NCBI GenBank assembly: GCA_031973355.1 | Contig: DALYDF010000001.1 | Location: 20,341 to 68,852, forward strand | Source of the DNA: Candidatus Magasanikiibacteriota bacterium | Lineage (GTDB): Bacteria > Patescibacteriota > Patescibacteriia > Magasanikbacterales > UBA922 | Direction of reading: 5' to 3' | DNA length: 48,512 nucleotides | In this document: piece after piece, positions 1 through 43,475 of the stretch | Position numbering within the stretch: the stretch's first letter is position 1 | Layout of the letters: the number at the start of each line of letters is the position of its first letter | Notes under the pieces: model-generated | What the model saw: the letters and a program-made list of their open reading frames with translations, nothing else | The model's database searches: none | What the model was told of the DNA's origin: nothing | Translations under genes and position numbers: made by a program

Positions 1-3000
1 CCAAGAAATCTTTTTTACCATTACCACAATAACCGGCTTCAGCCAAACCCGTACAGCCGGTCGAGTTTTCAGTTGGAGCATTACAGTGTCCATAAGTACC
101 ATTGAGGGCACCGTCATCGCAGGCCTCAGCCCCCTCAACGATACCATTTCCACATTGACCGACTGTCCCACAAGAACCATAACTCCAATTACATTGCGCA
201 GTACAGGTACGCGTCGCCTTTTGACCTGACATACATTGTACATCACCTACTGGTATAGCTTTACACGAATCAGGCCCTCTCACTTCTTTGGTTAACCGTG
301 TGTCAATTAAACATTTAACATTTTTCTTTTGATCAGCGGTAAGTTCATTGATAATTTTTTTAAAATCTTTCAGATCAATAAAATCATTATTATCCAAATC
401 CCAGTTTATGGTTGATTTTGATTCTGAATAATCTAACATGCTAATACGTACCGCAGTTGACCACTGTTCGTAGGTTTTAGGATCTAGACAATCAGCGTCG
501 TTTTGACAACTAAACACCGCAAATTCTTTATTTGAGGGTTGTCCCACCAACACACTAGGAATAGCAACGGACGAGGCACTTACATTACCACAAAACCTAC
601 CAGCAGTTAAACTGTGTAAGCGAAGATTTGGTTCATTTTTCACTTCAGTCAGTGGTTTATCATTATAGTACCCACACCGTGTGGCATCACTGTTACAATC
701 ACGAGGTGTTAACCAATTTGCACACTGTCTTTTTACTACGGTAGAGACCGAATAACCCACCTGTTCAACTGCTCCTGGCGGCTCACAGGCTTCACCATTA
801 TTAATAATTCCGTCACCACACTGACTTTTAAATGGATTATAGGCTACCCCCACACACCATCGCTCTGAACTGAACCGCTCTAAATTAATTTGTTTTTTAA
901 CAATATCATCTTGAGTAGTAAAATATTCAAACGGCGCGTGGAACTTATACGATTGTGTGGATGAAACAAATTCGTACTCGTATACACTGGCAAATCGTGG
1001 GCAATAATACGTAGTACTACTGGCACTCCAACAGGTTTCTTTATCTTCCGCATCACAACTAGTCCAGCGATTAAGCGGATCATTAGCTAAACCAGCCCCA
1101 ACCATAGTTTGTAAAGCCCCCCACGACTGCGCCCACCGCGATACCGTATATCCAGGCGCAAATGAGCCACTGGCCAATGAACCTTTGAAGTCAAAATTAT
1201 TTTTATTTTGGGCAAAATACCCATCAAGTAAATCTTGCGCTGTACTGACATCACTAACCCGTTTCCAATCACGTTGGAATTTAGTACGGGCATTTGAGCA
1301 GGTTCCGTTTGTACCTGGCAATTCTATACCATCGGCCGTACGACAATCAAAATCAGTTTGACAGCTTGATACGGTTACGGTTGATAAATAATTTGGGTTG
1401 GTTCTAATATTTCCAGCTGGAGTAACGCCATTACCACTAGCCAAACAATACCCATGGTCAGTGACATTAGTATTAAATTCCAAGGCCGCTAATATTTTTT
1501 CAAATACCTGGCGAGTTTCCGCCGCTGCGTTTGGATTAATACTAAACAAATAAACATTATTATATACAATATCATCATCAAAAGTAGCGGTTTCTCCACC
1601 GGTTACATTTAAGGCTTGAACATAGTAATTATTTCCATCAGTTAAAGCAGGGTACCCACCCACACTCGCTAATTTCATACTTCCTAATGAACCAAATTTT
1701 TTCGTATACCATTCTTGTAGTACACCTGAACTTTCAAAAATCTGCACCCCAATTACATCATCATTTTTGGGATTAAAGAACACACCTTTCTTGAGTAAGT
1801 CATTTGCTCCGGCAATACTATTTAACGAAGACAAGCTACCTTTTAAAACTGGCAAATCATCGGTCTTATCCCCTGGTTTTCCAGCATCAGCACAATAGCC
1901 GGTAGAAAAATTAAATTGATTATCTTTATATGGATATTGGGCGGCTTCTGGCCACGGATTATCACAATAAAAAGCGGTTAAATCAAATGTATCACTAAAG
2001 ACTAAATCTTTTTGGTTTTTTTCTAGACTACTATCTTCAATTACTTTGGCCTGAGCAATAGCCGTAATTTTTCCTGGTGCATTTTTGGAAATTACTTTCA
2101 AACGTTCAGCGGGATCGGTGGTCGCACCAGTAGTTTGTGGTTCAAAGGTAAAGACTGGGTTATTTGCGGGTACCCACGACCATGTCCACCGATATCCAAT
2201 CGTTGGCACAATATATTGATTCTTTTTAGTGGCAGCCACAGCTTGAAAAATGGTTGAGGTAGCTGGGGCTTGGAACAAATAACTATCCGGACTCACTTTA
2301 ACTGAATCAATTTTACAAATATCAGGTGCAGTTTTGAAAAACCAAACATCATTGCGATTAGCAGTATCAAACGCTTTGAGTGGTACACCACGAGTACTGA
2401 CAATTCCTCCCAATTGGGCAATGCCGTAAGTATCAGTAAATGGATAGGTGTTTGGAATAACAAATTTATTAAGAATTGCATTATCACCAATTAACATTAC
2501 TCCATACACAGCGGTCGGTTCCAATGGTTCACTAATACTAATTGAAGCAATTGTTTTTTTATTATTTTGCTGTGTGATAACCCGCGTTTTAACATCAGTA
2601 GCGATTGGTACCGTACACCAGGTTTTAAGCGCCGTAAATTCAGAACTATTTTTAACACTCGTGGCAATGGTTTCCGTGCCGAATAAATTACGCACCCACA
2701 TCAGTATTGATTGCCATAAACGAGCCCAGAAACCAGGTTTTTGTTGCAGAGCAAACGCTGAGACACTTTCATTTACCAACGGGGTAACGTTGTAACCGTT
2801 AACGGTTTTACAATCAAAATTTGCTTGACCAAAACCGCGTACAAAAAATACATTACCTTTGACTGAATCAGACCGAACCTCTTGGTTAAAGGTAACCTCT
2901 ACAAAAGTATTTCGACAGACTCCTTCGGTTTGACCAAAACCTGCCCCATCTTCAGGATACGCAGTTTCACGTTTTGGACGAGCTAAACAGCAAGATTGAG

Positions 3001-6000
3001 CATCAACTCCCAAGGTATTATCATTATTATTAGGACAATCATTATAGACTGGCACATCTTGCCATTTACTAAAACCAGTTCCTGGCATTGGAATATATTT
3101 TTTCTCGGTGTAAAATTCATTCAATTCACTATATCCACATTGTAAACGATAATCCGCTGTGCTGCTCACTACTTTATTTTCAGTGGTTACTGAAGCTTTG
3201 ATTGTAGTTTGTTGATAATCAGTATTGGCTACTAGAGCTCCCTCACCTACTGCTTCCACAATTTGGGTTGGACCAGAATTAGCACCCGTGGCTACTGGTA
3301 ATTCACAAGCCGGATTTTCCCCAGTCCCCTGTGTACCATCGCCACACACCGATGGTGCTGAATAGGAAGTTTTAGAACCCAATAACGTACATTTTGCGCT
3401 ACACCCTGCGGTACCTGCCTGACAGGGTTTTATATTATCCGGTAAACCACAAGCATTGATGAATAAACACTTATCACTACACTGGCTAGCCGCAACACCA
3501 CCAACCCCAACTTCACAATCTTCGTTGGCTTCCAATTCACCATTACCACACACACTAACGCTGTTCAAACAGCTGAGCGTTGTACCAAATTGCGCTTTAT
3601 TTTTTTGACACCAATAACTAGCCGTTGGTGAACCAGTCAATAAACATTGTTCTGTACAGCCAGCTTTAGTAGCCGGATCCTCACGATCACAACTTTCTCG
3701 ATCAGGCGTAACAATTCCATCACCACAAGTACCAACTGCTCCAGTACCCCCTTGTTTTGAACCGCGGAACAAACAAGTACTGGTACAATATGGGTTATCA
3801 GTTTTAACCGCATTATTTTGATTTCCCGGGTCACATTGTTCACCAGCTTTTGCTTCTACCTGTCCATTACCACACACATTTGCTCCGGCATTAGTAGCGC
3901 TAAAGGCTTTACTATTACCCGGACGCAGACACGACAAAGTACAGGTTCCTGACACACCATCAACACTAATCACTTCATCAGTCATTTTAATATCACAATC
4001 TTCACCGAGATCTTTTACTCCGTTTCCACACAATGGGCCAGCAGCTGACACTGAACCGGCCGCAAAAGTACTTCCCTTTTTTACACACGCATTCGTACAA
4101 TAATTAGGAATATTTGAATACGCGGCTGATTTTAAATTAGTGATTTTGGCGACACTACTATTAGCCACGCTCCAGGTGTAGGAATATCCCCATTTATTTA
4201 ACGCTTGACCAATTTTACTACACACATTTGGCGCACTATAGGGCACAACGGTAAACTTGTGTTGTTCACCAATTTCTTTAGCTAAGGCACTAATTGGCAC
4301 CACGCTCAATGAACTAACACTACATGGTTTACCATCATTTTTTGTTTTAAAAATCCATTCAAATGGTTGGAGGGATTTACCACGTACCACTGGATTTTGG
4401 CGCAACAAGGCTTTAATTGGTTCACCTGTACCAGGACCATTTAGTGACACCTTATAAAAAGTATTTGGCTCTAAATTTTTCGCACTTTCAGTAATTTGCA
4501 CGCGCATTGAAAGTAAATTTGAACCCACTTCGTCGATCGCAAATTTAGAAGTAACATCAATAGGATTTTCACAAAATTGGGAATCACATAAAAATACTTT
4601 TAATCCAGCCGCATACGTGCTTGGATCCATTTGACGATTAAAATCAGCGCGGATACTAGCGTTCACACAGGATTCCGCACAATTTGGTTCATAATAAGTA
4701 ACTACCGGATCAGCTAACTCCACATACAAGGTACTGGTTGGCGCAAACTTAACTGTACCTTGAAATTTTTCACCTTGAACCTTAAATTCTGGCAAGTCAT
4801 TACGGTAAATAAATTCATAAAACGTTGGACCGTTACTGTTGGCTGGCTGTGTTTCAAATACCAAAGAAGCTGGTGTATTTGGATTGGGAATAAGAATATT
4901 GTTTGCTGAAACTTCAGAAACCGGAGTAGTTAAGTTTACCCAAGTTAACTTACTGGTATTTTTATCCCAATATAAAGCGACATCGTATATTCCTTCATTG
5001 GTAGCTACTGGATAAAAACACACTTGTTTTCCCAGACTACCACTTGGTGGCACAAATGTTTTGAAACACATTTGACCACTGGTAAAAGTAATTCGATACC
5101 CGCCCTTAGTATTATTATTAGGTACCAAATTTGACACTAAGGTGTTATATGGGAACGGATCAGATTGAGCAAATTTAAGTCGTAAAGTAAATGAAGATTG
5201 CAATGAAAGTGGTGTAGTTAGTGAACTAGGTAATTCAATTCTCTGTTTTGGTGTATAACCGTTACTTGGCACAGTAATCCCGGCAACACTAAATACATTT
5301 AAACCAGTAATTTCAGCATAACTTGATATGGCATTATTAATAGTCGCTTCAGCTTTAATTGTTACCGACGGATTAGTTTGCGAACGCGCCGCCACCACTG
5401 CCCGACTATTTAAATATGGCAAACTACTGCTAGAGGCTTGTTTAGTAATTTTATGGGCAGTAGCAAATTCACTACCTGCTCCGGTTAACGTTGGTGACCA
5501 GGCCCAGGGATATTTATCAGCGTTAATTACTGAACATTCTTGATTACCCTTACCCCACAAATAGTAGAACACCGGTCGATCAGGTAATAATTCTGGTGGA
5601 TTTTGAGTTGGTAAAAATAAATCAGTGGAATCAAACGGAAAACTTGGATCTTGGATAATACCCACTTGACGCGCTGTATATTCCGGCGGGTTAATTCCAG
5701 CATCTACTAAAGTACATTGAGTACTGTCAGTTCTAAATGAAAAACAATATGCCGTACCAGTGCCACATGGTCGAGTAGCTAACAATGGCGCCGTCACTTC
5801 AATTTGTTTACCTAAAACATTAGTAAGTTTAATTGACTTAATGGTGGTAGCTAATTCAACCTGGTACCAAGTACTTACGGCTAACGCTGGTGGTTCCTGA
5901 CGAATAATTAATGTTTTACCACTATTTTGATATTCTAAAGTCAAAGATTGCGGTTCTTTTCTTGTCGTACAATCAATTTGACCACTGGCATTGGTAGCAC

Positions 6001-9000
6001 ATGCAAATAATTTTACTGAATTTGCCGTTAATGTTCCTGGTTGAATATCAGTGGTAAACCGAACTGCCACCGTACTGTTAACACACGCACTCGTATTAAC
6101 AAACGGAGTTCCTTTTACACGTGGTGTTGGTGATGGAAATGTGGTGGAATTACATTCTTCTACCACACTTGGTGCATTCGCAATAACACCAGTAGTAAAC
6201 CGCCACAAATAACCAGCCTCACGCGGTTCACCCATACAAGCCAAGCTATTTGGTTTCCACGTACCGGCTTCGGCACCTTTGTCACAACAGTGGTACCCAG
6301 GCAAAGTAGTTTTACTCCCGATACAACTATCAACCGTATAATTAACACTGTTACTTATTAAATCTGGGGTTGGACCAGTCACTTTAATTGGCCCTGAAGA
6401 CATTGAGGTCCCATCGGCCGCTACTGGCAAACGGGTCACTAAGTGATTTTTACTTAATTCAGTAACCAGTGCTCCAGCGGTATTATCATTTCCATAACCA
6501 TTTTTTTTCTCAGCACTGAGCCAGGTACTTAATTGTAATGGATCAGAATTTTTGCGCCAAAAATGCACTTTAGTTTGGGCATAAAAATTTGCCCCATACA
6601 CAATTAAACCGATACTACTATTTGGTAGTGGAGCCGGACCATGATTTGGTGAAATTTTACAAATACTTGGTCGTGGCGAACCAGGCACAATTTCAATAAA
6701 TTCTTGACCACTGGTTTGACTCGTATCAGTCACTACCGCTATATGTAATTTTTTAACCTGCCCCGCAGAAACTGCAAAATATTCATCGCCAGGAATGGCG
6801 GCAATTACCTGATTCGCACTCCACGTATTACCACACTGATTAGGAAAATCAGTGACACTTAATTGTTTACAACTAGAGTCAGGATTCTTACTGCCACAAG
6901 TAGCCGCTGCGCCAGGACCGCTCGCTACATATACAAAACCAGGAAACGAACCGAACCCACTTCCTTTAATCGTAATATAACTACCGACCGTAGTAGACGG
7001 TGGATCAATCGCTGTAATTTGTGGTAAAGATACTTTAACATCTGGATTTAAGACTTGAAATTGCACACCATTACTTATTTCACCACCTACCAAAGCATGC
7101 ACAGCTACATACCCAGCCTTAAAATTAGCTGGCACCCGAACATTAACAGCTAATTCTGTCCAAAATTTTTCTACAATTTCTGCAATTACCCCACCAGTCA
7201 AAGTATTATTCGTGGTATTTTTTGTAGCTCCAAAAGTAATTTTACTATCAGTATTTACCGTTCCCAATCCACTACCTTTAACAGTTACTCCTACTCCTGG
7301 AATAGCCGCGCCTTCACCTTCGCGTAACACGACTTTTTCACCTCCTAACGTTACTTCGGTATCAGCGGTCACCCCCACACTACATAAACCCGGACGTTTT
7401 ATTGTATTTACAGTAAATAAACCATCGCCACCTGGCAAACCACCTAACTCATTAATCGTGGTATCAAATTTATTATTACTGGTGGTTACCTTAATTACTG
7501 CTTTTTTACCCACCGCAATGTCAGGTACGGCCACAATAATCCAAAATTGTCGCCATGATTGTCCATTACCACAATTTACAATGGTCGCTGGAGTCCATTC
7601 ATTATTTTCGTAATCACCATTATTATTGGCATCAATTCCAAAGGCTACGGTACCAGCGGCATTACCAAAACTTTTACCAGTAATCGTAATCCAGTTACCC
7701 ACTGCCCCATCCATTCGATCTACATCAGTAATCACTGGTGCAGGGGCACACACTTTATTAACACACTGAAATCCCGTTGCACAATCACTGTCCACTTCAC
7801 ACTGATCGCCATCGCCACCAGAACAAGAACCACCTGAATCAACTCCAGTCTCATCACCATCTAAAATATTATTATCACAGTGTCCTGACTGGACTTTAAA
7901 AGCGGCACTCACTGTCTGAGTATTACCATCAATATCATTTCCTACCACGGTTACCGTATAATTTTGTCCAACTTCAAATCGATTATCCAATTTGGTGGTG
8001 TAGCTAAAATCAAAAGGTACTGAAGAACCATCCTGTGCTAATGGCGCAGTATATGAAGTAAGTATGGCTGAACTTCCACTTTTAGCCACTGAAATTTTTA
8101 CTAACCCATTTCCCCCGTATTTTTGAAGAGAGCGGTCATTGAGTGTTCCAGCGATCACCAAATTAGTATTCTGAGCAAAGGTTAATCCATTACCACTTTT
8201 ATTATTTAAGGTAATTGGACTAAAGACAGGGGCCGTTGTATCGGTCTGATCCTTTTCAACAATAAATGAAACACTGTTCGTATATTTTTTACCTCCACTT
8301 TTATGTTCAGTTTTTAATTTTTGATTTAATGAATCAACCAAGTCAGCTGACACTGTTACCGTATATGGATCAGAGCTACTAATTCTAAATGGGGAAACTG
8401 AGCCATTATTTAAATAATTAACTTCCAACACTCGATTATTTTCTACCAATGAAACCTTTACGGGTAAAGGACCGGCTCCATCTTTTCTTTGAACACTCAC
8501 GGCTTTGCTCACGTCGCTATCACCTTTGACCGGACGACTTAATAATACCCGGACCGTGATATTATCCATCCCCGTAGTTATGATGTCTTTATCCTGAGAA
8601 TACGAACCAGGCGTAATTGCTTTAACATAAAATTCTCGATCCTGACAAATATCATATTCTGGGTGCGCTGCACAAGTAGCGTCACACGCTTCTTTATTAT
8701 AATTTTCTGGTTCACACGCACCAGGACTGTTATCTGAATCCCCAAGTACACTCGTGTTACCACCGATAATTGCATCACCTAACTGCTTAAAGACAAACAA
8801 TACAATTGCCCAGGCAGACAATATAATTACCAAACCAATCGTCGCATTGATAATATATTTTTTACCTTCAGCAATCTTATCTTCACTGCCACCTGAGGTC
8901 ATGTACAAGAAACCACCGTACAAAATTAAGGCGACCGTAATTAAACCCAAAACACCAAGGGCAATATTAATAAATCGCGCGGCGATTTCACGAATATCAC

Positions 9001-9136
9001 CACTTCCTAAACCAATCGTATTATTTATTGGATTGATCCCAAACGTGTCAGTTTGGGCGAACGCCGCTTGTGCACCAAAAAACACCAACCCAGCCATGAT
9101 GAGGCCAGTTAAAAGTAGTGTGGTGCGTTTAAACAT
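1..9136 (-). CDS. Giant cell-surface protein; N-terminus in window, C-terminus beyond the left edge (>3045 codons). Signal peptide + T4SS-pilin-like (VirB2/TrbC-type) two-helix membrane module, IPT/Ig-like repeats, Cys-rich 'CGxG..E.CD' repeats, dockerin/EF-hand-like loop
   Basis: The ATG is 'cat' at 9134-9136, 5 nt after the stop (9142) of the upstream 751-aa gene. Hand translation of the minus strand from 9136 to 1 met no stop. The ORF track has no minus ORF in this frame: the six short minus ORFs here all end at coordinates = 0 mod 3, and this frame is 1 mod 3. That is expected when the stop lies outside the window. N-terminus: MFKRTTLLLTGLIMAGLVFFGAQAAFAQ...ALILYGGFLYMTSGGSEDKIAEGKKYIINATIGLVIILSAWAIV. 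Repeats include PVITDVDRMDGAVGNWITITGKSFG (IPT-like) and CGNGVKDLGEDCD / CGNGQVEAKAGEQCD / CGDGIVTPDRESCD / CGNGELEANEDCE. Confidence 0.85.
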   Translation of the reverse strand, partial: MFKRTTLLLTGLIMAGLVFFGAQAAFAQTDTFGINPINNTIGLGSGDIREIAARFINIALGVLGLITVALILYGGFLYMTSGGSEDKIAEGKKYIINATIGLVIILSAWAIVLFVFKQLGDAIIGGNTSVLGDSDNSPGACEPENYNKEACDATCAAHPEYDICQDREFYVKAITPGSYSQDKDIITTGMDNITVRVLLSRPVKGDSDVSKAVSVQRKDGAGPLPVKVSLVENNRVLEVNYLNNGSVSPFRISSSDPYTVTVSADLVDSLNQKLKTEHKSGGKKYTNSVSFIVEKDQTDTTAPVFSPITLNNKSGNGLTFAQNTNLVIAGTLNDRSLQKYGGNGLVKISVAKSGSSAILTSYTAPLAQDGSSVPFDFSYTTKLDNRFEVGQNYTVTVVGNDIDGNTQTVSAAFKVQSGHCDNNILDGDETGVDSGGSCSGGDGDQCEVDSDCATGFQCVNKVCAPAPVITDVDRMDGAVGNWITITGKSFGNAAGTVAFGIDANNNGDYENNEWTPATIVNCGNGQSWRQFWIIVAVPDIAVGKKAVIKVTTSNNKFDTTINELGGLPGGDGLFTVNTIKRPGLCSVGVTADTEVTLGGEKVVLREGEGAAIPGVGVTVKGSGLGTVNTDSKITFGATKNTTNNTLTGGVIAEIVEKFWTELAVNVRVPANFKAGYVAVHALVGGEISNGVQFQVLNPDVKVSLPQITAIDPPSTTVGSYITIKGSGFGSFPGFVYVASGPGAAATCGSKNPDSSCKQLSVTDFPNQCGNTWSANQVIAAIPGDEYFAVSAGQVKKLHIAVVTDTSQTSGQEFIEIVPGSPRPSICKISPNHGPAPLPNSSIGLIVYGANFYAQTKVHFWRKNSDPLQLSTWLSAEKKNGYGNDNTAGALVTELSKNHLVTRLPVAADGTSMSSGPIKVTGPTPDLISNSVNYTVDSCIGSKTTLPGYHCCDKGAEAGTWKPNSLACMGEPREAGYLWRFTTGVIANAPSVVEECNSTTFPSPTPRVKGTPFVNTSACVNSTVAVRFTTDIQPGTLTANSVKLFACATNASGQIDCTTRKEPQSLTLEYQNSGKTLIIRQEPPALAVSTWYQVELATTIKSIKLTNVLGKQIEVTAPLLATRPCGTGTAYCFSFRTDSTQCTLVDAGINPPEYTARQVGIIQDPSFPFDSTDLFLPTQNPPELLPDRPVFYYLWGKGNQECSVINADKYPWAWSPTLTGAGSEFATAHKITKQASSSSLPYLNSRAVVAARSQTNPSVTIKAEATINNAISSYAEITGLNVFSVAGITVPSNGYTPKQRIELPSSLTTPLSLQSSFTLRLKFAQSDPFPYNTLVSNLVPNNNTKGGYRITFTSGQMCFKTFVPPSGSLGKQVCFYPVATNEGIYDVALYWDKNTSKLTWVNLTTPVSEVSANNILIPNPNTPASLVFETQPANSNGPTFYEFIYRNDLPEFKVQGEKFQGTVKFAPTSTLYVELADPVVTYYEPNCAESCVNASIRADFNRQMDPSTYAAGLKVFLCDSQFCENPIDVTSKFAIDEVGSNLLSMRVQITESAKNLEPNTFYKVSLNGPGTGEPIKALLRQNPVVRGKSLQPFEWIFKTKNDGKPCSVSSLSVVPISALAKEIGEQHKFTVVPYSAPNVCSKIGQALNKWGYSYTWSVANSSVAKITNLKSAAYSNIPNYCTNACVKKGSTFAAGSVSAAGPLCGNGVKDLGEDCDIKMTDEVISVDGVSGTCTLSCLRPGNSKAFSATNAGANVCGNGQVEAKAGEQCDPGNQNNAVKTDNPYCTSTCLFRGSKQGGTGAVGTCGDGIVTPDRESCDREDPATKAGCTEQCLLTGSPTASYWCQKNKAQFGTTLSCLNSVSVCGNGELEANEDCEVGVGGVAASQCSDKCLFINACGLPDNIKPCQAGTAGCSAKCTLLGSKTSYSAPSVCGDGTQGTGENPACELPVATGANSGPTQIVEAVGEGALVANTDYQQTTIKASVTTENKVVSSTADYRLQCGYSELNEFYTEKKYIPMPGTGFSKWQDVPVYNDCPNNNDNTLGVDAQSCCLARPKRETAYPEDGAGFGQTEGVCRNTFVEVTFNQEVRSDSVKGNVFFVRGFGQANFDCKTVNGYNVTPLVNESVSAFALQQKPGFWARLWQSILMWVRNLFGTETIATSVKNSSEFTALKTWCTVPIATDVKTRVITQQNNKKTIASISISEPLEPTAVYGVMLIGDNAILNKFVIPNTYPFTDTYGIAQLGGIVSTRGVPLKAFDTANRNDVWFFKTAPDICKIDSVKVSPDSYLFQAPATSTIFQAVAATKKNQYIVPTIGYRWTWSWVPANNPVFTFEPQTTGATTDPAERLKVISKNAPGKITAIAQAKVIEDSSLEKNQKDLVFSDTFDLTAFYCDNPWPEAAQYPYKDNQFNFSTGYCADAGKPGDKTDDLPVLKGSLSSLNSIAGANDLLKKGVFFNPKNDDVIGVQIFESSGVLQEWYTKKFGSLGSMKLASVGGYPALTDGNNYYVQALNVTGGETATFDDDIVYNNVYLFSINPNAAAETRQVFEKILAALEFNTNVTDHGYCLASGNGVTPAGNIRTNPNYLSTVTVSSCQTDFDCRTADGIELPGTNGTCSNARTKFQRDWKRVSDVSTAQDLLDGYFAQNKNNFDFKGSLASGSFAPGYTVSRWAQSWGALQTMVGAGLANDPLNRWTSCDAEDKETCWSASSTTYYCPRFASVYEYEFVSSTQSYKFHAPFEYFTTQDDIVKKQINLERFSSERWCVGVAYNPFKSQCGDGIINNGEACEPPGAVEQVGYSVSTVVKRQCANWLTPRDCNSDATRCGYYNDKPLTEVKNEPNLRLHSLTAGRFCGNVSASSVAIPSVLVGQPSNKEFAVFSCQNDADCLDPKTYEQWSTAVRISMLDYSESKSTINWDLDNNDFIDLKDFKKIINELTADQKKNVKCLIDTRLTKEVRGPDSCKAIPVGDVQCMSGQKATRTCTAQCNWSYGSCGTVGQCGNGIVEGAEACDDGALNGTYGHCNAPTENSTGCTGLAEAGYCGNGKKDFL

Positions 9137-9141
9137 AAATA

Positions 9142-11397
9142 CTATTGATCTGATTGCAGGGCCGATGGACTTGCCTCTTTAACTTTTTGAAGGCAGGTTT
9201 TTAAATTTGGTTGTAAAGTATTTGGTTGTAAGCCAAATACACAACCAGTATCAGTGTCCGCATCGGCGGTAACCTTAACACAATTTTTATTAATTTCATC
9301 ACTACCATTTACACTATCAGTAAATTCGCACTTCAGATTTGGGTTATTTACTCCTGGTTCATTTACTGGACCACGACCCGGATACATACAATTTTGGTTG
9401 TCGCCTTTAACTGAACTGGAGACAAAGGTAAAATAATATAAATCTAACCCACCTGGACCAAATTCTCGCGGGTGCTGAATTTGCGCAAAAGTAGTTTTAT
9501 TTTCTGGAATTTCTCCCATTTGGAAATAATACGGAAAATCTTCCAATGGAACTTTATCTGCCCCTAATACATTTTGTGGATATTCAATAATTCCGGCACT
9601 GTTTGGAATGGTATTATACCACATTGCCTTACTGAAATAAATCTCCACAACTTCATTTCCTTTGACCCCTTCTGCCTCTACGTTAGGCTTAACTTGAGTG
9701 ATGTACGGAATCTCCCGGTCAATTTCATTTTTAACTTTAAAATTCCACAAATAATTGTCTGGATTGCTTTCTAATGGACCAATGGTTTTAATACTACCCG
9801 CAGGCAGTGGTGGTTTGTGAATCCAGGCCGAACCAGCCTCTCCACCTTTAGCCAAAACTCCATCTGCTTGATTATTTGGACCATTATCCAAGGCATTATC
9901 CGCCATATCCATTACCCCAGTATTTGGTTGAGACACAAAATTATTATCAGCGGGATTTTGTAAAAAGGCGGTCCGTACTAAGGTTGAGTAATTTTCCGTA
10001 CACACCGTATCGGTTGGTGCACAGGTGGTTGGCAAACAATACATTTTTTCACCACAACTATTTTGCCCACACTCTTCACTCGGCACAAATTCTATGGTGC
10101 GGTACCCATTAGAAATTCGCCATTCACCGGTAATATTTGGGTTATTGAAAATAATATTACTAAAATTACTGGCTGGTCCAGACACCCCTTGGGTGACCGA
10201 CGGATCAACCGGCTCATTAAAAGTAATTTGGATAATTTTATTACGCGCCATCACTTCACCTGCTTGTGGACGAGTAGACACAACTGACGGCGGAGTAAGA
10301 TCGACAGTGGTGCTGGCTTCAAAATTCCAACTATAAAATTTACTAATAAATTGTTGAGGGAAAATATCTGTACCGTCTAACCGTTTAATCCCGAAGGTAT
10401 TTTGGGTGCCACCCATTAATTTAACGGTGTACCAGGTATTAGCAGAATCACTACCTAAATATTGTAATGGTTTAAAGGTAAACACCGTGGCTTTTTTCTC
10501 GGCGTCATACACCGCAATCGCGGCGGCAGTAGACAATGTTTTTTGGGTACTCGTTGCCTGACTTTTTGGGAAAATTTGAATAGTATCAGTTCGTAACAAA
10601 TCACATTCAGTTTCTAAATTAAGACCTGGTGTACCATCAAAATCTAAACAATCACCATAGTACGGTAATGGCTGCCCATTGGTTGGACCGCTCGTAGACA
10701 AGGCACACACCTCACCAACATTAGTGTCAGGAATTCGCACTGGTATAGAACTACCATCTTTGGGCCAGCAAGTTTTATTAGTATTACTAATTAAACTACT
10801 TGGTAATATTGGCTCAGCAAACGTAACGGCGATTTTAGTATTACGAGCCACATTTACCTGGTTTGGGCGCGGATAGTGATCTTTAATTACTGACCCTAAA
10901 CCACCACTACCGATGTATGAAGCAAAAAATGGTTGTGGACCACCGTCATTTTGTCCATTATTTCCTTGGCCACCAAAAACATCATTAAGTGATTTGAAAA
11001 TAAATTGCACAATTGCAAAGGTGGACATAATAATTACCAGGCCCACCACGGCATTGGTTAACACTTTTTTTCCTTGTAATACCTTTTCTTCATTACCGGC
11101 CGAAGTCATGATCAAAAAACCACCATACAAAACTAAACCAAAAGCAATAATTCCCAACAAACCTAAGATAACGTTAATAATTCGGCCAGCCACGGTCCGA
11201 ATATCATCATTACCTAAAATAATCGTATCTTGAATTGGCTGAAGACCTAAAACATCTTGATTATCAGCTTGCGCGAGCACAGATACTGGGTTTAAAACCA
11301 GTGTAAAAAAAACAAAAATCATTGCCATTAATTTGACAACGATTTTTTCGTGAATTTTCTTAGCCAGAATCCGAGGAAGCATGAACCCGGGACTCAA
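9142..11397 (-). CDS. Large secreted/membrane-anchored protein (751 aa) with T4SS-pilin-like N-terminal module and Ig-like (SbsA/Big_5-type) domains
   Basis: ORF track. The hydrophobic N-terminus and the segment IINVILGLLGIIAFGLVLYGGFLIMTSAGNEEKVLQGKKVLTNAVVGLVIIMSTFAIVQF are paralogous to the N-terminus of the downstream giant ORF. Motifs 'VTFAEPILPSS' and 'ITFNEPVDPS' are typical of Big_5-like Ig domains. The start codon is uncertain (M1/M6/M24/M26). Confidence 0.8.
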   Translation of the reverse strand: MSPGFMLPRILAKKIHEKIVVKLMAMIFVFFTLVLNPVSVLAQADNQDVLGLQPIQDTIILGNDDIRTVAGRIINVILGLLGIIAFGLVLYGGFLIMTSAGNEEKVLQGKKVLTNAVVGLVIIMSTFAIVQFIFKSLNDVFGGQGNNGQNDGGPQPFFASYIGSGGLGSVIKDHYPRPNQVNVARNTKIAVTFAEPILPSSLISNTNKTCWPKDGSSIPVRIPDTNVGEVCALSTSGPTNGQPLPYYGDCLDFDGTPGLNLETECDLLRTDTIQIFPKSQATSTQKTLSTAAAIAVYDAEKKATVFTFKPLQYLGSDSANTWYTVKLMGGTQNTFGIKRLDGTDIFPQQFISKFYSWNFEASTTVDLTPPSVVSTRPQAGEVMARNKIIQITFNEPVDPSVTQGVSGPASNFSNIIFNNPNITGEWRISNGYRTIEFVPSEECGQNSCGEKMYCLPTTCAPTDTVCTENYSTLVRTAFLQNPADNNFVSQPNTGVMDMADNALDNGPNNQADGVLAKGGEAGSAWIHKPPLPAGSIKTIGPLESNPDNYLWNFKVKNEIDREIPYITQVKPNVEAEGVKGNEVVEIYFSKAMWYNTIPNSAGIIEYPQNVLGADKVPLEDFPYYFQMGEIPENKTTFAQIQHPREFGPGGLDLYYFTFVSSSVKGDNQNCMYPGRGPVNEPGVNNPNLKCEFTDSVNGSDEINKNCVKVTADADTDTGCVFGLQPNTLQPNLKTCLQKVKEASPSALQSDQ

Positions 11398-14339: not shown

Positions 14340-16919
14340 TTAACGAACCATCATTAAATCATCAATTCCTTCACTAATTGGGGTAGACCCGTAGTCAATG
14401 TCCACTTTGTAAATCAAATCTGGAGATTGGAATCCAAAATAAACAATACTCGATTCAGAAACAGTCCGTTTGGCTGTAGTTATCACTTTCCCAAAAGGGC
14501 CATACACGGTGATGTTTGCTTCTACTTTTTGACCATATAAATTTGCTGGCCCAACCAAGTAAAAGCCCATAGCCTTAACCGGAGTATTAAAGCCTAGATA
14601 CAACGGATCATTAGAACTATTTTTTGGAGAAGTAGCATTATTACTAATGGAATAAGCACCAGACGAAGTTTTGGCACCACCACGATTATAATCATTTACA
14701 TAAATCGCTTTACCGTTGTTTGACCAAATTGTTACTCCGTACAAAGAAACATATTTAGTAATCACTTCACCAACAGTATCTTCAAAATCAACTGTCTTAG
14801 GTTGTAATGCTTTAAGATCAGTGAGGGAAATTTCACCTGTTGTGGTGATTGTTGGGTTTGGTGGCGTTACTACTATTGGAGCTTTGAACAAAAAGTAACG
14901 ATAATCTGACCATGCGCCTTTCACATATTCATTTGTCGCGCTATCAAGGAAAACAGGGCGAGCGCGCAAACGATATGATTTACCATCAGCAAAAGGTCCG
15001 ATCGTGGTATTTACATAGCCATTTTCACTTTGGGATAAATTTATCTGACTCGTATTACTCCAATTCCCAGCTTGGCAATCAAAACAATCTACTGTTAATT
15101 CATAATGTTTTGAATTTGGAACTGTGGTAAATTTAACCGATACCGTTGTTTCATTATTTACAAACACCTGATTAGCACTTGGCATCACCACGCTTGGCGC
15201 TGTGCTTAAGTAGGGGTTTACAGTTGCCTTAGCTGGAATCTTGATGTGAATCGCAATTACATCATCAACTTCCACAGGCATATTCGGCACGCGTGAAACA
15301 CCATCATTGTTTCGCACATAAGCCAAGACAGTTACATACTTACCACGATAATAATCCGTTACGTTAAACGTAGCACCATTACTAAAAGCAGAGAAACTAA
15401 GATTTGAAACTAAATTTTTAGCCAAATTTTCATCAAAATTACTGGAACCTGTATTGGAATTTACCCAAATATAACCATACGTGTAATTTGCTGAAGGAGC
15501 CTTAACTGAACGATTAACCCGCAAGGTGAATTGATTGATACCACTTGGAATATCAATTAGTTGTTTAGCGGCATAACCTTTTAAGCGCAGGTATCCTGAA
15601 TTGGCATATCCAAGCAATTCATTATTTGTGTTATACAAACTGAGCGTATCAATAATATGAGAACTATCAGGAACCACCGTGGTATTTTTACCTGGCACAT
15701 ACACACGCATAACCGCAATATCATCAACTTCAGTAGCCATGCCTGGTACCGATGAAATACCATCATTATTACGCACAAAAGCGTACACCATCAACCAACG
15801 ATCTCCGCTATCACCATACAATTCATCAGTAATATCATATCGAGTCGCTTGAGGAGAACTACTGAAAGTTAAATTAGAGGTAATTTCACTAGTAAGTGCC
15901 TTATTAAATTCTGGTTTTTCTTTCTTCATGTCGACAGCAAAAGAATAGGAAAAATTTCCTGAACTTTTTGTGGTTATTGCATAACGCAAACCACTTTGAC
16001 CTTTTGGCAAAGCCACTTCATCTGGATACCATGGAAAAGATCCATCAGATCCATAACTAATGTCAGTTTTAGCATTTACATTTCCTGTTTGAGGGTTAGA
16101 AACACTAAACAATGAAATCAAATCAGTTCCAGAAACACCAGGCGTGATTGGATTAACTGGAGACACAGGAGCAACGGGCACCTCAGGCACGGCACCTACA
16201 CCACCTAATTGGGTTGGATCAGCCAAAATTTCTGCTACAGTAGTAGTCTCAGTACTAAGTGGTACATTTTCCAGCATAGACTGTCTAATACCCTGCACAT
16301 CTTTATTCAAAAAAGTAGGTATAGAACCAAGAACTTTTTTCAACTTACCCTCAGATACGAAATACACTTGAGGATTATCTTCAATAACAACTAACTGTCC
16401 ATTAACTGATTTAATATTTTCAACATCTGAACCAATTTTTAAATTAGAATCAAAGGCATCAGATAATAAACGAATTTTAGTTGGCCAATTATTTCCAAAT
16501 AAAACTACAGCAGTACTTTCATTTGTAATACGGTGTTTAGTATTATTTGGACCAACCGCATAAACTGTTGGAGAAACAGCTGTTTTAACTAATCGTGAAC
16601 CTGGTCGATAATTTACGCCACCACCAGTTGGATATTCATCCACACAAATCGGATCAATAGTAACAATTCCAGAATAATCACTATACCAAGTACTATATAC
16701 TTCACTATTAGGAAAATACATTCGTTTGTGATCTTTGTTGACGATATACACCGCCGGGTAATTCGCAACCTTAAAACGAGTACCGGCACTTAATTCTGCA
16801 CAATTAGTGGCCTGAACTAAAGATGGTACCCAAACCGACAAACTCAAACTAGACACCAATACCCCTCCCACAGTGACTGCAGAAAAAAATTGACGAGTTT
16901 TTTTAAAAAAAACACTCAT
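14340..16919 (-). CDS. Secreted hypothetical protein (859 aa) with internally duplicated beta-rich module
   Basis: ORF track. Signal peptide: MSVFFKKTRQFFSAVTVGGVLVSSLSLSVWVPSLVQA. Two paralogous segments: YAFVRNNDGISSVPGMATEVDDIAVMRVYVPGK and AYVRNNDGVSRVPNMPVEVDDVIAIHIKIPAK. Confidence 0.8.
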   Translation of the reverse strand: MSVFFKKTRQFFSAVTVGGVLVSSLSLSVWVPSLVQATNCAELSAGTRFKVANYPAVYIVNKDHKRMYFPNSEVYSTWYSDYSGIVTIDPICVDEYPTGGGVNYRPGSRLVKTAVSPTVYAVGPNNTKHRITNESTAVVLFGNNWPTKIRLLSDAFDSNLKIGSDVENIKSVNGQLVVIEDNPQVYFVSEGKLKKVLGSIPTFLNKDVQGIRQSMLENVPLSTETTTVAEILADPTQLGGVGAVPEVPVAPVSPVNPITPGVSGTDLISLFSVSNPQTGNVNAKTDISYGSDGSFPWYPDEVALPKGQSGLRYAITTKSSGNFSYSFAVDMKKEKPEFNKALTSEITSNLTFSSSPQATRYDITDELYGDSGDRWLMVYAFVRNNDGISSVPGMATEVDDIAVMRVYVPGKNTTVVPDSSHIIDTLSLYNTNNELLGYANSGYLRLKGYAAKQLIDIPSGINQFTLRVNRSVKAPSANYTYGYIWVNSNTGSSNFDENLAKNLVSNLSFSAFSNGATFNVTDYYRGKYVTVLAYVRNNDGVSRVPNMPVEVDDVIAIHIKIPAKATVNPYLSTAPSVVMPSANQVFVNNETTVSVKFTTVPNSKHYELTVDCFDCQAGNWSNTSQINLSQSENGYVNTTIGPFADGKSYRLRARPVFLDSATNEYVKGAWSDYRYFLFKAPIVVTPPNPTITTTGEISLTDLKALQPKTVDFEDTVGEVITKYVSLYGVTIWSNNGKAIYVNDYNRGGAKTSSGAYSISNNATSPKNSSNDPLYLGFNTPVKAMGFYLVGPANLYGQKVEANITVYGPFGKVITTAKRTVSESSIVYFGFQSPDLIYKVDIDYGSTPISEGIDDLMMVR

Positions 16920-42742: not shown

Positions 42743-43423
42743 TTAGCGAATGGTGGTAGTTACGGTTGAAGTGGTGGTCGCACTCAAAGCAGATTCAGGA
42801 TTGTTTAATAATTTTTGGGCCATTTCTTGCAAAGTCTTATCATCGATTTTACTCAACACCTCTGGATCAATTTTACCAGTACTTAAAATTACATTGCGTA
42901 ATTGTTCAGGATTATTAATTAATGCTTCTAATTCAGCGGTCGCATTTGGGTCAGCCGCACTTGCTTGGCCACTAAAATTAAGAATGTCTGAAGGGGTTGC
43001 GGTTTGATTTAATAATGGTGAAGATAGACTAGAAGTAGCGGTTACCCCTGCGCTATCTGCCCCTGCACAAACCATGTCAGTTGGACACAATGGATCAGTT
43101 CCTTTTTCAATTTCAATTTTATCCATCACCCCATCGGAGTCACTGTCAGGTAAATACGGACTCGTTTCGTATTGTTGTAATTCTTCAAAATCAGTTAACC
43201 CATCTCGATCCGTATCAATATTTTTTAATCGCTCTTCATCATTATTTGTTAAAGAAGCAAAGGGATTAGTATCAGCTTTCTTAACTACGAATCGTCCGTA
43301 GATAGTATTTCGCAATTGCAATCCTCCTAAACCGACCGTAAGTATAGCAAAAATAAGCATAAAGATAAAACCAATCTTTTGCTCACGAGAAAATCCGGAG
43401 AGACTGCGTTGATTCGGCAACAT
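42743..43423 (-). CDS. Membrane-anchored protein with thrombospondin-type-3-like Ca-binding repeats
   Basis: The ATG at 43423 (MLPNQRSLSGFSREQKIGFIFMLIFAILTVGLGGL) is preferred, because the tracked start at 43456 is a TTG. Repeats: DTDRDGLTDFEE and DSDSDGVMDKIE. Confidence 0.75.
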   Translation of the reverse strand: MLPNQRSLSGFSREQKIGFIFMLIFAILTVGLGGLQLRNTIYGRFVVKKADTNPFASLTNNDEERLKNIDTDRDGLTDFEELQQYETSPYLPDSDSDGVMDKIEIEKGTDPLCPTDMVCAGADSAGVTATSSLSSPLLNQTATPSDILNFSGQASAADPNATAELEALINNPEQLRNVILSTGKIDPEVLSKIDDKTLQEMAQKLLNNPESALSATTTSTVTTTIR

Positions 43424-43446
43424 GGCCTGAAAATTAGATTGTTGGC

Positions 43447-43475
43447 AGTATACCAAAAAAGAGCCGTAGGCTCAA
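43447..43475 (-). promoter_or_regulatory. Extended -10 promoter for the TSP3-protein/giant-gene pair, embedded in the rsmA terminator
   Basis: Minus strand: TTGAGC (43475-43470), 17 nt ending in TGg, TATACT (43452-43447). Confidence 0.55.

What the first reader, a model, noticed from the sequence alone, without database searches (positions are those of the whole stretch)
1..9136. A >9.1-kb open reading frame fills the region where the ORF track shows only scraps
The track lists only 60-140-aa ORFs in 1-9140, so the region could be mistaken for non-coding or recoded DNA. Reading the minus strand from the ATG at 9136 gives an uninterrupted frame to position 1, more than 3045 codons, with the C-terminus outside the window. 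The product is mosaic. It starts with a membrane hairpin, followed by Ig-like modules and several IPT-like modules (about 7700-6400). A block of Cys-rich repeats of the form C-G-[ND]-G-x(5-8)-E-x-C-[DE] lies at about 4040-3300 and again at 830-1. I recognise these as the Myxococcales-type cysteine-rich repeat (from memory). A dockerin/EF-hand-like loop, DLDNNDFIDLKDFKKI, lies at about 330-412. Giant adhesin-like proteins are plausible host-attachment factors for episymbiotic small-genome bacteria.
Basis: partly seen in the sequence, partly recalled or inferred. Interest (0 to 1): 0.6.

Follow-up and report, generated by a model that had tools for sequence, protein, structure and literature searches.

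The report
Giant surface protein with pilin head
The "empty" 9 kb is most of a 3772-residue cell-surface protein of an ultra-small (CPR) bacterium; it starts with the small membrane hairpin normally found in conjugation-type pilins and is a conserved core gene of its bacterial class, so it is a good but untested candidate for how these host-dependent cells touch other cells.

Summary
Window 2..9136 (-) is one stop-free frame of 3045 codons starting at ATG 9136. The ORF track missed it because it omits frames that run off the window.

The 100-N gap at the window's left edge is an assembly artefact. The 55 nt on each side are identical and in frame. Merging gives a complete 3772-aa gene (about 415 kDa, 136 Cys), colinear with four orthologues.

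Architecture, N to C:
- a signal peptide and a VirB2-like T4SS pilin hairpin (PF18895)
- Ig-like, IPT/TIG and SbsA/Big_5 domains
- two blocks of TIGR02232 Cys-rich repeats
- a family-defining alpha/beta domain with no known relative
- a variable all-beta C-terminal domain

The dockerin/EF-hand reading is not supported.

The pilin head is the most conserved part of the protein and is 56% identical to a 203-aa pilin of this genome's 10-gene pilin array. The genome also has a VirB4/PrgI T4SS core.

The alpha/beta domain marks 1072 protein clusters. It occurs in 140/151 genomes of the order and 102/121 of the class, in conserved synteny with TSP3-repeat genes.

Most likely it is a pilin-hairpin-anchored extracellular fibre for cell contact. 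Incorporation into a T4SS pilus is possible but unproven. No paper I could search describes such fusions.

The parts
2..9136 (-). First 3045 codons of the giant gene. The complete gene is 3772 codons and continues left of the window to the stop at C1:18003-18005, after removal of a spurious 100-N gap with a 55-nt overlap.
   Evidence: Colinear with orthologues.
9053..9136 (-). Signal peptide, aa 1-28 (MFKRTTLLLTGLIMAGLVFFGAQAAFA|Q). The A-x-A cleavage site is inferred.
   Evidence: Hydrophobic segment at aa 4-27 in the Kyte-Doolittle scan. The sequence was read directly. No SignalP was run, so cleavage is an inference.
8795..8998 (-). VirB2-like T4SS pilin hairpin (PF18895), aa 47-114. The two hydrophobic helices are at aa 50-81 and 93-124, joined by the loop MTSGGSEDKIAEGKK.
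   Evidence: PF18895 at 39.1-46.5 bits against a cut-off of 26.6. TM scan. It is 56% identical to small pilin C35:3020-3631 and 54% to the neighbour's head. It is the most conserved window of the family.
7877..8629 (-). Ig-like beta-rich modules, aa ~170-420. Only weak HYR and Big_3_3 similarity.
   Evidence: HYR E = 0.014. Big_3_3 E = 0.26. Both are below threshold, so the boundaries are approximate.
6317..7738 (-). IPT/TIG module region, aa ~467-940.
   Evidence: PF01833, 2 stretches, E = 5.9e-10. PDB 8co1 IPT/TIG protein aligned to aa 585-694.
5825..6094 (-). SbsA/Big_5 Ig-like domain, aa 1015-1104.
   Evidence: PF13205 at 42.2 bits for the whole protein against a cut-off of 23.6. Tile hit.
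4439..4708 (-). Second Big_5-like Ig domain, aa ~1477-1566.
   Evidence: PF13205 tile hit, E = 7.7e-4, 20.6 bits, below the cut-off on its own.
3257..4069 (-). Cys-rich acidic repeat block 1, aa ~1690-1960. Strict units at aa 1703, 1755, 1804 and 1863.
   Evidence: TIGR02232 at 27.8 bits against a cut-off of 20.8, 3 stretches. Regex count.
1985..2989 (-). Tandem Ig-like beta-sandwiches (S-layer/SbsC-like), aa 2050-2384. They include an inserted conserved Trp-rich amphipathic helix, GFWARLWQSILMWVRNLF, at aa 2135-2152 (window 2681-2734).
   Evidence: AF2 model with pLDDT 80. Foldseek best matches are SbsC 2ra1 (E = 1.6e-6), 4uj6, SbsB, GspB, invasin and cadherins. The viral library also returned only Ig-like hits.
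812..1984 (-). Family-defining alpha/beta domain, aa 2385-2775. It has no Pfam, NCBIfam or PDB relative.
   Evidence: High pLDDT in the AF2 model. None of the top-50 Foldseek hits covers it. No Pfam or NCBIfam family covers it. 1072 representative clusters. Present in 140/151 genomes of the order and 102/121 of the class.
2..820 (-). Start of Cys-rich repeat block 2, from aa 2773. It continues beyond the window to aa ~3400. It contains the non-conserved EF-hand-like loop at window 353-400.
   Evidence: TIGR02232 at 25.8 bits (window part) and 26.5 bits (post-gap part) against a cut-off of 20.8. DUF4215 at 25.7 bits against 27. EF-hand_6 at E = 0.14 only. The loop is not conserved.
9142..11397 (-). 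Upstream, translationally coupled 751-aa gene with its own PF18895 pilin head plus Big_5 domains. Only 5 nt separate its stop from the giant's ATG.
   Evidence: Pfam. Heads are 53% identical over 110 aa, E = 5e-30. Junction sequence. Present in L001, L002 and L008 but absent at this locus in three distant class members.

Best explanation
The region encodes a complete, intact 3772-residue (about 415 kDa) cell-surface protein of a Magasanikbacteria-type CPR bacterium.

Proposed mechanism, with shown and inferred steps marked:
1. A Sec signal peptide is followed by a VirB2-like two-helix pilin hairpin. The hairpin inserts in the cytoplasmic membrane with both ends outside and the basic loop inside. 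The domain identity is shown; the topology is inferred from VirB2 biology and the positive-inside rule.
2. The remaining ~3640 residues are therefore extracellular. They form a chain of roughly 30 modules: Ig-like, IPT/TIG and SbsA-type Ig domains, disulfide-rich acidic repeats, a conserved alpha/beta domain, and a fast-evolving double beta-sandwich at the far end. Domain identities are shown. A length on the order of 100 nm is inferred.
3. The fibre projects beyond the envelope and makes contact with another cell or surface. The variable C-terminal domain and/or the conserved alpha/beta domain would act as the binding parts. This step is inferred.
4. The pilin head is not a passive anchor. 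It is the most conserved part of the protein and a close paralogue of the genome's small array pilins. It probably interacts with the same partners as those pilins: other pilins and the VirB4/PrgI/VirB6-type T4SS. This step is inferred.

The gene is a conserved, mostly one-per-genome core gene of its class. It sits between yqeY and genes for TSP3-repeat (Ca2+-binding) membrane proteins, which may be its assembly or docking partners. This last point is inferred from synteny only.
For: - Intact ORF, with the gap resolved.
- PF18895 head above cut-off.
- Only three hydrophobic segments, all N-terminal, and no C-terminal anchor.
- Head is 56% identical to a 203-aa array pilin, and the tails after the hairpin form a continuum from 0 to 3642 aa.
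- Head is the most conserved 50-aa window of 63.
- The extracellular nature of the rest fits 136 Cys in TIGR02232 repeats, TIG and Big_5 domains, and S-layer/adhesin-type Ig folds.
- A DsbA-like oxidoreductase is present in the genome.
- A T4SS core (VirB4-like ATPase plus PrgI) is present on C8.
- A 10-gene pilin array is on C35.
- Distribution: 30 close clusters; 1072 representative clusters; 140/151 genomes of the order; 102/121 of the class. Head and alpha/beta domain lie in the same frame in at least 13 other genomes.
- Conserved synteny S26-hisS-yqeY-giant-TSP3-TSP3.
- Literature: the Patescibacteria T4SS and its VirB2-like pilins are essential for epibiotic growth, and no PrgB-type adhesin has been found (PMC10633639, PMC12102498, PMC12857230).
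Against: - There is no expression, localisation or binding data.
- No recognisable lectin or adhesin tip domain was found. The C-terminal domain matches only a protein of unknown function (2qng, E = 2.4e-4). The alpha/beta domain matches nothing.
- The gene is near-universal and syntenic with housekeeping genes. That fits a structural envelope role as well as, or better than, host-specific adhesion.
- The gene is not next to the T4SS genes in this fragmented assembly (C1 against C8).
- The head profile gives no sequence link to any solved VirB2/TraA pilin. The giant's own head does not hit classical PF04956.
- High conservation of a TM hairpin can partly reflect its restricted hydrophobic alphabet.
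Confidence: 0.6

Rival explanations
1. It is a true modular pilin. The VirB2-like head is extracted from the membrane by the T4SS (VirB4/PrgI/VirB6-like) and built into a pilus made mostly of the small array pilins, at the tip, at the base, or sparsely along it. The 3640-aa tail would then be displayed as the pilus adhesin, filling the VirB5/PrgB role that has not been found in Patescibacteria.
For: - The head is a full PF18895 domain and is closer to one small pilin (56%) than the small pilins are to each other (18-47%).
- The head is the most conserved segment.
- Tail lengths form a continuum.
- A T4SS core and a pilin array are present.
- PMC12102498 reports no PrgB-like adhesin. PMC12857230 notes that these T4SSs may build pili.
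- From my own knowledge, C-terminal extensions of F-pilin are displayed on the pilus exterior (Rondot et al. 1998, not re-read here).
Against: - No pilus of this type has been imaged.
- A 400-kDa tail cannot sit on every subunit of a VirB2-type helix.
- The gene is not in the T4SS cluster here.
- There is no sequence link to solved pilins.
- Nothing computed here distinguishes a pilus subunit from a membrane-resident hairpin.
Confidence: 0.25
2. It is a structural envelope protein: an S-layer-like or spacer/scaffold component that every cell of the class needs. It would have nothing specifically to do with binding a host.
For: - It is a near-universal gene, mostly one per genome, in fixed synteny with housekeeping genes.
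- The best structural matches of the Ig domains are S-layer proteins SbsC, SbsB, Sap and EA1.
- Big_5 is the SbsA-type Ig domain.
Against: - At 415 kDa and with a single membrane hairpin it is unlike known lattice-forming S-layer proteins.
- No SLH or other wall-binding domain was found.
- The C-terminal third evolves fast (18-37% identity against about 50-60% in the conserved parts), as expected for a part that faces a changing partner.
Confidence: 0.12
3. The frame is an assembly artefact or a decaying pseudogene.
For: - The gene is split by a 100-N scaffold gap in a repeat-rich region.
- A few relatives show in-frame stops inside the homologous domain: G337, G258, G199, G256 and G320.
Against: - There are no stops in 3772 codons.
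- The 55-nt overlap is exact and in frame.
- Four orthologues of 3763-4207 aa (frames as listed by the tools) are colinear end to end.
- Hundreds of intact homologues exist.
Confidence: 0.02

Closest known systems
Small VirB2-like pilins of the Patescibacteria T4SS (Pfam PF18895 T4SS_pilin; the essential pilin array of Ca. Southlakia epibionticum; PMC10633639, PMC12102498)
   Same: - The N-terminal module is the same: signal peptide, two hydrophobic helices, and a short charged loop with the motif ...YGGFxxMTxxGxxxK...
- It scores above the PF18895 cut-off.
- It is 56% identical to a 203-aa pilin of the same genome.
- This genome also has the array (10 genes on C35) and a VirB4/PrgI core.
   Different: - Those pilins are about 120-300 aa and often lie beside virB4.
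- This protein carries a 3642-aa extracellular tail and lies in a housekeeping neighbourhood.
- It is conserved as an orthologue across a class rather than varying as an array.
Modular ('bulky') type IV pilins such as Streptococcus sanguinis PilB/PilC (PMC8179133)
   Same: The concept is the same: a pilin polymerisation or anchor module fused to a functional adhesive domain.
   Different: - The pilin superfamily is unrelated (type IV pilin/T2SS class against VirB2/T4SS class).
- The cargo there is one domain of a few hundred residues, not about 30 modules.
Giant non-fimbrial adhesins (SiiE, LapA/MpIBP RTX adhesins, Embp/Ebh, Mobiluncus 7651-aa adhesin; PMC6272769, PMC5550230, PMC9302970, PMC10619420)
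   Same: It has a very long chain of Ig-like modules ending in distinct terminal domains, and a presumed reach-out-and-bind function.
   Different: - It shows none of their export or anchoring signatures: no hit to an RTX-repeat (T1SS-type) family, and no LPXTG/sortase signal.
- Anchoring is by an N-terminal pilin hairpin.
- The ectodomain is a mosaic of non-identical modules rather than a repeat array.
- It is rich in disulfide repeats.
Cys-rich acidic repeat proteins (TIGR02232 myxo_disulf_rpt / Pfam DUF4215)
   Same: Nine strict C-G-[ND]-G-x-E-x-C-[DE] units are present, and TIGR02232 scores above its cut-off in three segments.
   Different: The repeats make up only about a quarter of the protein. 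Their function is unknown in every system, and they are here combined with a pilin head.
Geobacillus S-layer proteins SbsC/SbsB (PDB 2ra1, 4uj6, 4aq1)
   Same: They are the best structural matches for the tandem Ig domains at aa 2050-2384 (Foldseek E = 1.6e-6 to 1e-5).
   Different: The resemblance is at the level of generic Ig-like domains (TM scores 0.1-0.2 over the whole model). No SLH or SCWP-binding domain is present, and there is no evidence of lattice formation.

Membership tests
Pfam PF18895 T4SS_pilin (VirB2-like pilins of Patescibacteria) | Profile match above the curated cut-off (26.6 bits) | tested here: met
   39.1 bits, 46.2 bits, 41.2 bits, and 46.5 bits on the isolated head.
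Pfam PF18895 T4SS_pilin (VirB2-like pilins of Patescibacteria) | Signal peptide followed by a two-helix hydrophobic hairpin with a short polar loop | tested here: met
   The Kyte-Doolittle scan gives segments at aa 4-27, 50-81 and 93-124 only. The head aligns with 12 paralogous heads.
Pfam PF18895 T4SS_pilin (VirB2-like pilins of Patescibacteria) | Small protein (about 100-300 aa) consisting essentially of the hairpin | tested here: not met
   The protein is 3772 aa, with 3642 aa after the hairpin.
Pfam PF18895 T4SS_pilin (VirB2-like pilins of Patescibacteria) | Encoded in or near the virB4 T4SS cluster (true for about 58% of cases in PMC12102498) | tested here: not met
   VirB4-like and PrgI genes are on contig C8, while the giant is on C1 between yqeY and TSP3 genes. 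The assembly is fragmented, so the distance between them is unknown.
Pfam PF18895 T4SS_pilin (VirB2-like pilins of Patescibacteria) | Polymerises into a T4SS-dependent pilus | not testable with these tools
   This needs imaging or biochemistry. It has not been shown even for the small pilins.
Classical TrbC/VirB2 pilins (Pfam PF04956) | Profile match | tested here: inconclusive
   The giant's own head gives no PF04956 hit at E <= 1. Three of 12 paralogous heads hit it (best E = 3e-4). The head profile finds no solved VirB2/TraA structure.
TIGR02232 myxo_disulf_rpt (Cys-rich acidic repeat) | Profile match above the curated cut-off (20.8 bits) | tested here: met
   27.8 bits (window 3200-4150), 25.8 bits (window 2-901) and 26.5 bits (post-gap 745 aa).
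Pfam PF13948 DUF4215 | Gathering score of 27 bits | tested here: not met
   Best score is 25.7 bits, E = 1.4e-5. This is a sub-threshold match to a related repeat model.
IPT/TIG (PF01833) and Big_5 (PF13205) Ig-like domains | Profile matches above cut-offs | tested here: met
   TIG at 39.4 bits against 20.9. Big_5 at 42.2 bits against 23.6.
Dockerin type I / EF-hand Ca-binding loop | Profile match and conservation of the D-x-D-x-N/D loop | tested here: not met
   No Dockerin_1 hit; EF-hand_6 at E = 0.14, 12.4 bits against 25. The segment is absent in L001 and the motif is not kept in G267 or G251.
T1SS RTX giant adhesins (LapA/SiiE/MpIBP type) | C-terminal RTX repeats or a T1SS signal | tested here: not met
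   No RTX/HemolysinCabind hit at E <= 1 in any segment. Export is by an N-terminal signal peptide.
Sortase-anchored (LPXTG) surface proteins | C-terminal LPXTG motif, hydrophobic stretch and basic tail | tested here: not met
   The C-terminus reads ...KFCKLKKHLPGDVYGSCL. There is no hydrophobic segment outside aa 4-124.
S-layer proteins (SbsC/SbsB type) | SLH or SCWP-binding domain plus self-assembling Ig-like domains | tested here: not met
   The Ig-like domains resemble SbsC/SbsB, but no SLH or wall-binding family was found. Self-assembly is not testable here.

The most novel reading that the evidence does not exclude
In this CPR class the VirB2-type pilin hairpin has become a general handle for surface display, and this giant is the missing adhesin of the essential Patescibacteria T4SS. 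Its head would co-assemble with the small array pilins at the T4SS. The machine would then carry a ~100-nm, disulfide-stiffened fibre whose conserved alpha/beta domain and variable tip engage the host envelope. The co-syntenic TSP3-repeat membrane proteins would act as Ca2+-dependent docking or assembly partners. These would be the first modular conjugative-type pilins.
Probability: 0.25. Interest if true: 0.8.

Novelty: new variant of a known kind. Interest (0 to 1): 0.58.

Why it matters
Patescibacteria/CPR make up a large share of bacterial diversity and live attached to other cells. Their T4SS and its VirB2-like pilins are essential for that lifestyle in the one system tested (PMC10633639). 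What the system does, and what it uses to touch the host, is unknown, and no adhesin has been identified (PMC12102498).

A giant surface protein that carries the same pilin module, is among the largest genes of a ~0.9-Mb genome, and is kept in conserved synteny in most sampled members of a whole class is an obvious candidate for that contact function.

It offers concrete handles for experiments:
- a conserved alpha/beta domain and a variable tip domain that can be expressed and tested for binding
- a head whose topology and co-assembly with small pilins can be assayed

There is also a practical point. Scaffold gaps and ORF listings that drop open-ended frames hide genes like this one, so they are under-annotated. 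NCBI names relatives only 'LamG-like jellyroll fold domain-containing protein'.

Tried and rejected
- **Global MAFFT alignments for the C-terminal model.** Aligning the C-terminal fragments to full-length homologues (A2, A3) scattered the fragment over the Cys repeats. I discarded them and used an alignment of locally cut C-termini instead (A4).
- **Fold searches for the conserved alpha/beta domain.** PDB and viral Foldseek searches of the 801-aa model returned only Ig-like matches. No match to this domain appeared among the top 50, i.e. none better than E ~ 4e-3.
- **PDB sequence searches.**
  - The whole window part gave only one weak IPT/TIG hit.
  - The head profile gave only chance-level hits.
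- **VirB4 search.** PF03135 (CagE_TrbE_VirB) found no VirB4 in this genome. The FATA-type ATPase was found with PF19044 and PF12846 instead.
- **Dockerin/EF-hand reading.** Rejected.
- **Recoding or non-coding reading of the region.** Rejected, because the frame is open under table 11.
- **Second giant gene.** The gene at window 34150-42741 has no pilin head or shared domains detectable by Pfam or NCBIfam, so I treated it as a separate system.
- **Local phmmer screen.** A single-sequence phmmer run with the alpha/beta domain missed the giants of L009 and L011, although genome search had found them. I relied on the latter.
Full report
**1. The observation**

With open-ended frames allowed, the ORF lister reports 2..9136 (-), 3045 aa, ATG start, no stop before the window ends. 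Direct translation shows no stop. Composition is even across the window (about 0.39-0.42 G+C in this region). There is no sign of foreign or non-coding DNA.

**2. The gene is complete**

- The window is C1:20341-68852 of a 923-kb, 56-contig genome, 91% complete.
- Directly left of the window lie 100 N (C1:20241-20340).
- The 55 nt before the gap are identical to window 1-55. That is the signature of two k=55 assembly contigs joined with a placeholder gap.
- The reading frames agree. On both sides the protein reads CTGLAEAGYCGNGKKDFL.
- Merging gives a 3772-aa ORF ending at C1:18003-18005, with 136 Cys and about 415 kDa.
- Two relatives from other genomes have giants of 4207 aa (L001) and 3809 aa (L002). 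Two same-genus relatives have open frames of 3763 aa (G267) and 4000 aa (G251). All four align colinearly across the junction with no missing block.

**3. Anatomy**

| Residues | Feature | Evidence |
|---|---|---|
| 1-28 | Signal peptide ending AFA\|Q | |
| 47-114 | PF18895 T4SS_pilin; helices at 50-81 and 93-124; loop MTSGGSEDKIAEGKK | |
| ~170-420 | Weakly Ig-like | |
| ~467-940 | IPT/TIG modules | |
| 1015-1104, ~1477-1566 | Big_5 (SbsA-type Ig) | |
| ~1690-1960 | Cys-rich block 1 | |
| 2050-2384 | Tandem Ig sandwiches with an inserted conserved Trp-rich helix (aa 2135-2152) | |
| 2385-2775 | Alpha/beta domain, no known relative | |
| 2773-~3400 | Cys-rich block 2 | |
| ~3400-3772 | All-beta C-terminal domain | |

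- No other hydrophobic segment exists in the protein beyond the three at the N-terminus, and there is no LPXTG motif.
- Both Cys blocks and the post-gap part score above the TIGR02232 cut-off. Pfam DUF4215 is just below its cut-off.
- The AF2 model of aa 2050-2850 is confident (pLDDT 80, pTM 0.75).
- Its best PDB matches are S-layer proteins SbsC/SbsB and adhesins such as GspB, invasin, cadherins and LigA. All of these are matches to the Ig domains.
- The viral library gave the same result. The alpha/beta domain therefore has no structural match among the top hits.
- The C-terminal 396 aa fold as two beta sandwiches (pLDDT 71, pTM 0.78). The best match is a Streptomyces protein of unknown function (2qng, E = 2.4e-4).
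- The loop DLDNNDFIDLKDFKKI gives only EF-hand_6 at E = 0.14. It lies in a segment absent from L001 and is not conserved in same-genus orthologues.

**4. The head is a real member of the pilin family**

- The genome holds 13 PF18895 domains: the giant, its 751-aa upstream neighbour, a 530-aa protein on C13, and ten small genes in tandem on C35.
- The giant's head is 56% identical to a 203-aa array pilin and 54% to the neighbour's head. The array pilins are 18-47% identical to each other.
- The tails after helix 2 form a continuum: 0, 5, 7, 8, 10, 11, 22, 59, 89, 160, 340, 604 and 3642 aa.
- All 12 heads tested hit PF18895, and 3 of them also touch classical TrbC/VirB2 (best E = 3e-4).
- A profile of the heads finds no solved pilin.
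- Across 28 full-length homologues, aa 51-100 is the most conserved of 63 windows (0.69 against a mean of 0.52), and aa 101-150 ranks third.
- The genome also encodes the FATA-like T4SS core described for Patescibacteria: a 621-aa VirB4-type ATPase (P-loop_TraG E = 1e-29, AAA_10, TraC_F_IV) beside PrgI/VirB3 on C8.

**5. Distribution**

- The word-indexed search found 30 clusters of 2018-5016 aa, 25 of them carrying PF18895. Where named, they are from Ca. Magasanikbacteria.
- The exhaustive search with the alpha/beta domain found 1072 representative clusters, 831 of them at E <= 1e-10. Almost all are 3000-5300 aa, with the domain at a similar position.
- In whole genomes the domain occurs in 140/151 genomes of the order (80/84 genera). 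97 of these have a single match. It lies mostly in frames of 2000-5300 aa.
- It occurs in 102/121 genomes sampled across the class (98/113 genera).
- PF18895 itself is in 201/201 class genomes. 26 of the 150 best matches lie in frames longer than 1000 aa.
- In at least 13 genomes the head and the alpha/beta domain share one frame.

**6. Neighbourhood**

- In this genome and in L002 the order is: signal peptidase S26, HisRS, YqeY, the 751-aa pilin-headed gene, the giant, then TSP3-repeat membrane proteins.
- The partial loci L001, L007 and L008 show the parts of this order that they cover.
- Three distant class members (G032, G118, G115) keep S26-HisRS-YqeY-giant-TSP3-TSP3 but lack the 751-aa gene. 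The medium partner is therefore a later, lineage-specific addition whose head is a duplicate.
- The 751-aa gene's stop is 5 nt from the giant's ATG.

**7. Interpretation**

What is shown:
- an intact, conserved, exported giant protein with a VirB2-like head
- an ectodomain of Ig-type modules, disulfide repeats and two uncharacterised domains

What is inferred:
- the N-out/C-out topology
- an extended fibre on the order of 100 nm
- a contact function
- interaction of the head with the pilin/T4SS system

The literature I could search describes the Patescibacteria T4SS, its essential small pilins and the absence of a known adhesin (PMC10633639, PMC12102498, PMC12857230). It does not describe pilin-headed giants.

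Earlier notes of this scan report the same design in many other genomes. I treat them as leads. The parts I re-tested agree with them.

I rank a pilin-hairpin-anchored contact fibre first (0.6). True incorporation into a T4SS pilus is second (0.25), a purely structural envelope role third (0.12), and an artefact or pseudogene last (0.02).

**8. Verdict**

It is a new variant of a known kind: a VirB2-like pilin module carrying a giant adhesin-like ectodomain. It is not unique to this window, but as far as I could find it is undescribed in the literature.

Noticed in passing
window 1-55 and C1:20186-20340 (left of the window): The 100-N scaffold gap is spurious. The two flanks share an exact 55-nt overlap, typical of a k=55 assembly-graph break in repeat-rich DNA. 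Annotation pipelines would call two partial genes here.
   Followed up: yes
C1:14955-17973 (left of the window; L005:956-3974, minus strand): Three consecutive genes (351, 290 and 357 aa) for signal-peptide or TM proteins lie directly downstream of the giant. Two of them match the bacterial TSP3 Ca-binding repeat family (PF18884; one above its cut-off, one below), and the third has a TSP3-like acidic motif but no Pfam hit. TSP3-repeat genes in this position are syntenic across the class. The partner of the second giant (window 42743-43456) also carries TSP3_bac.
   Followed up: partly
window 2681-2734 (-), aa 2135-2152: A conserved Trp-rich amphipathic helix, GFWARLWQSILMWVRNLF (family consensus GFWxxxWxxIKxFFxxL), is inserted in an Ig-like domain of an extracellular protein. 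AF2 confidence is low there. It might be a membrane-active or partner-binding element.
   Followed up: no
genome contig C35:1700-7446 (+) (L004): A tandem array of ten small PF18895 pilin genes (132-285 aa), only 18-47% identical to each other, some with Cys/Gly-rich N- or C-terminal extensions.
   Followed up: partly
genome contig C8:4845-15944 (-) (L003): A T4SS core cluster: a VirB4-like ATPase (621 aa) and PrgI/VirB3 (158 aa), with several unannotated membrane-protein-sized ORFs and a 1400-aa ORF with no family match upstream.
   Followed up: partly
genome contig C13:13502-15848 (-) (L006): A 530-aa PF18895-headed protein lies directly downstream of a DsbA-like thioredoxin gene (PF13462, E = 3e-20). 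This oxidoreductase is a plausible source of the disulfides that the Cys-rich surface proteins need.
   Followed up: partly
L002 (CAYYQC010000001.1): A record labelled 'uncultured Gammaproteobacteria bacterium' carries the fully syntenic CPR locus (S26-HisRS-YqeY-751 aa-giant-TSP3). The taxonomic label of that MAG is probably wrong.
   Followed up: no
window 14340-16919 (-): An 859-aa ORF with no Pfam or NCBIfam family lies between the signal peptidase gene and the ribosomal protein S16 gene.
   Followed up: no
relatives G337, G258, G199, G256, G320: In a few genomes of the order the homologous region contains one to three in-frame stop codons. These could be occasional pseudogenes, sequencing errors or local recoding.
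   Followed up: no
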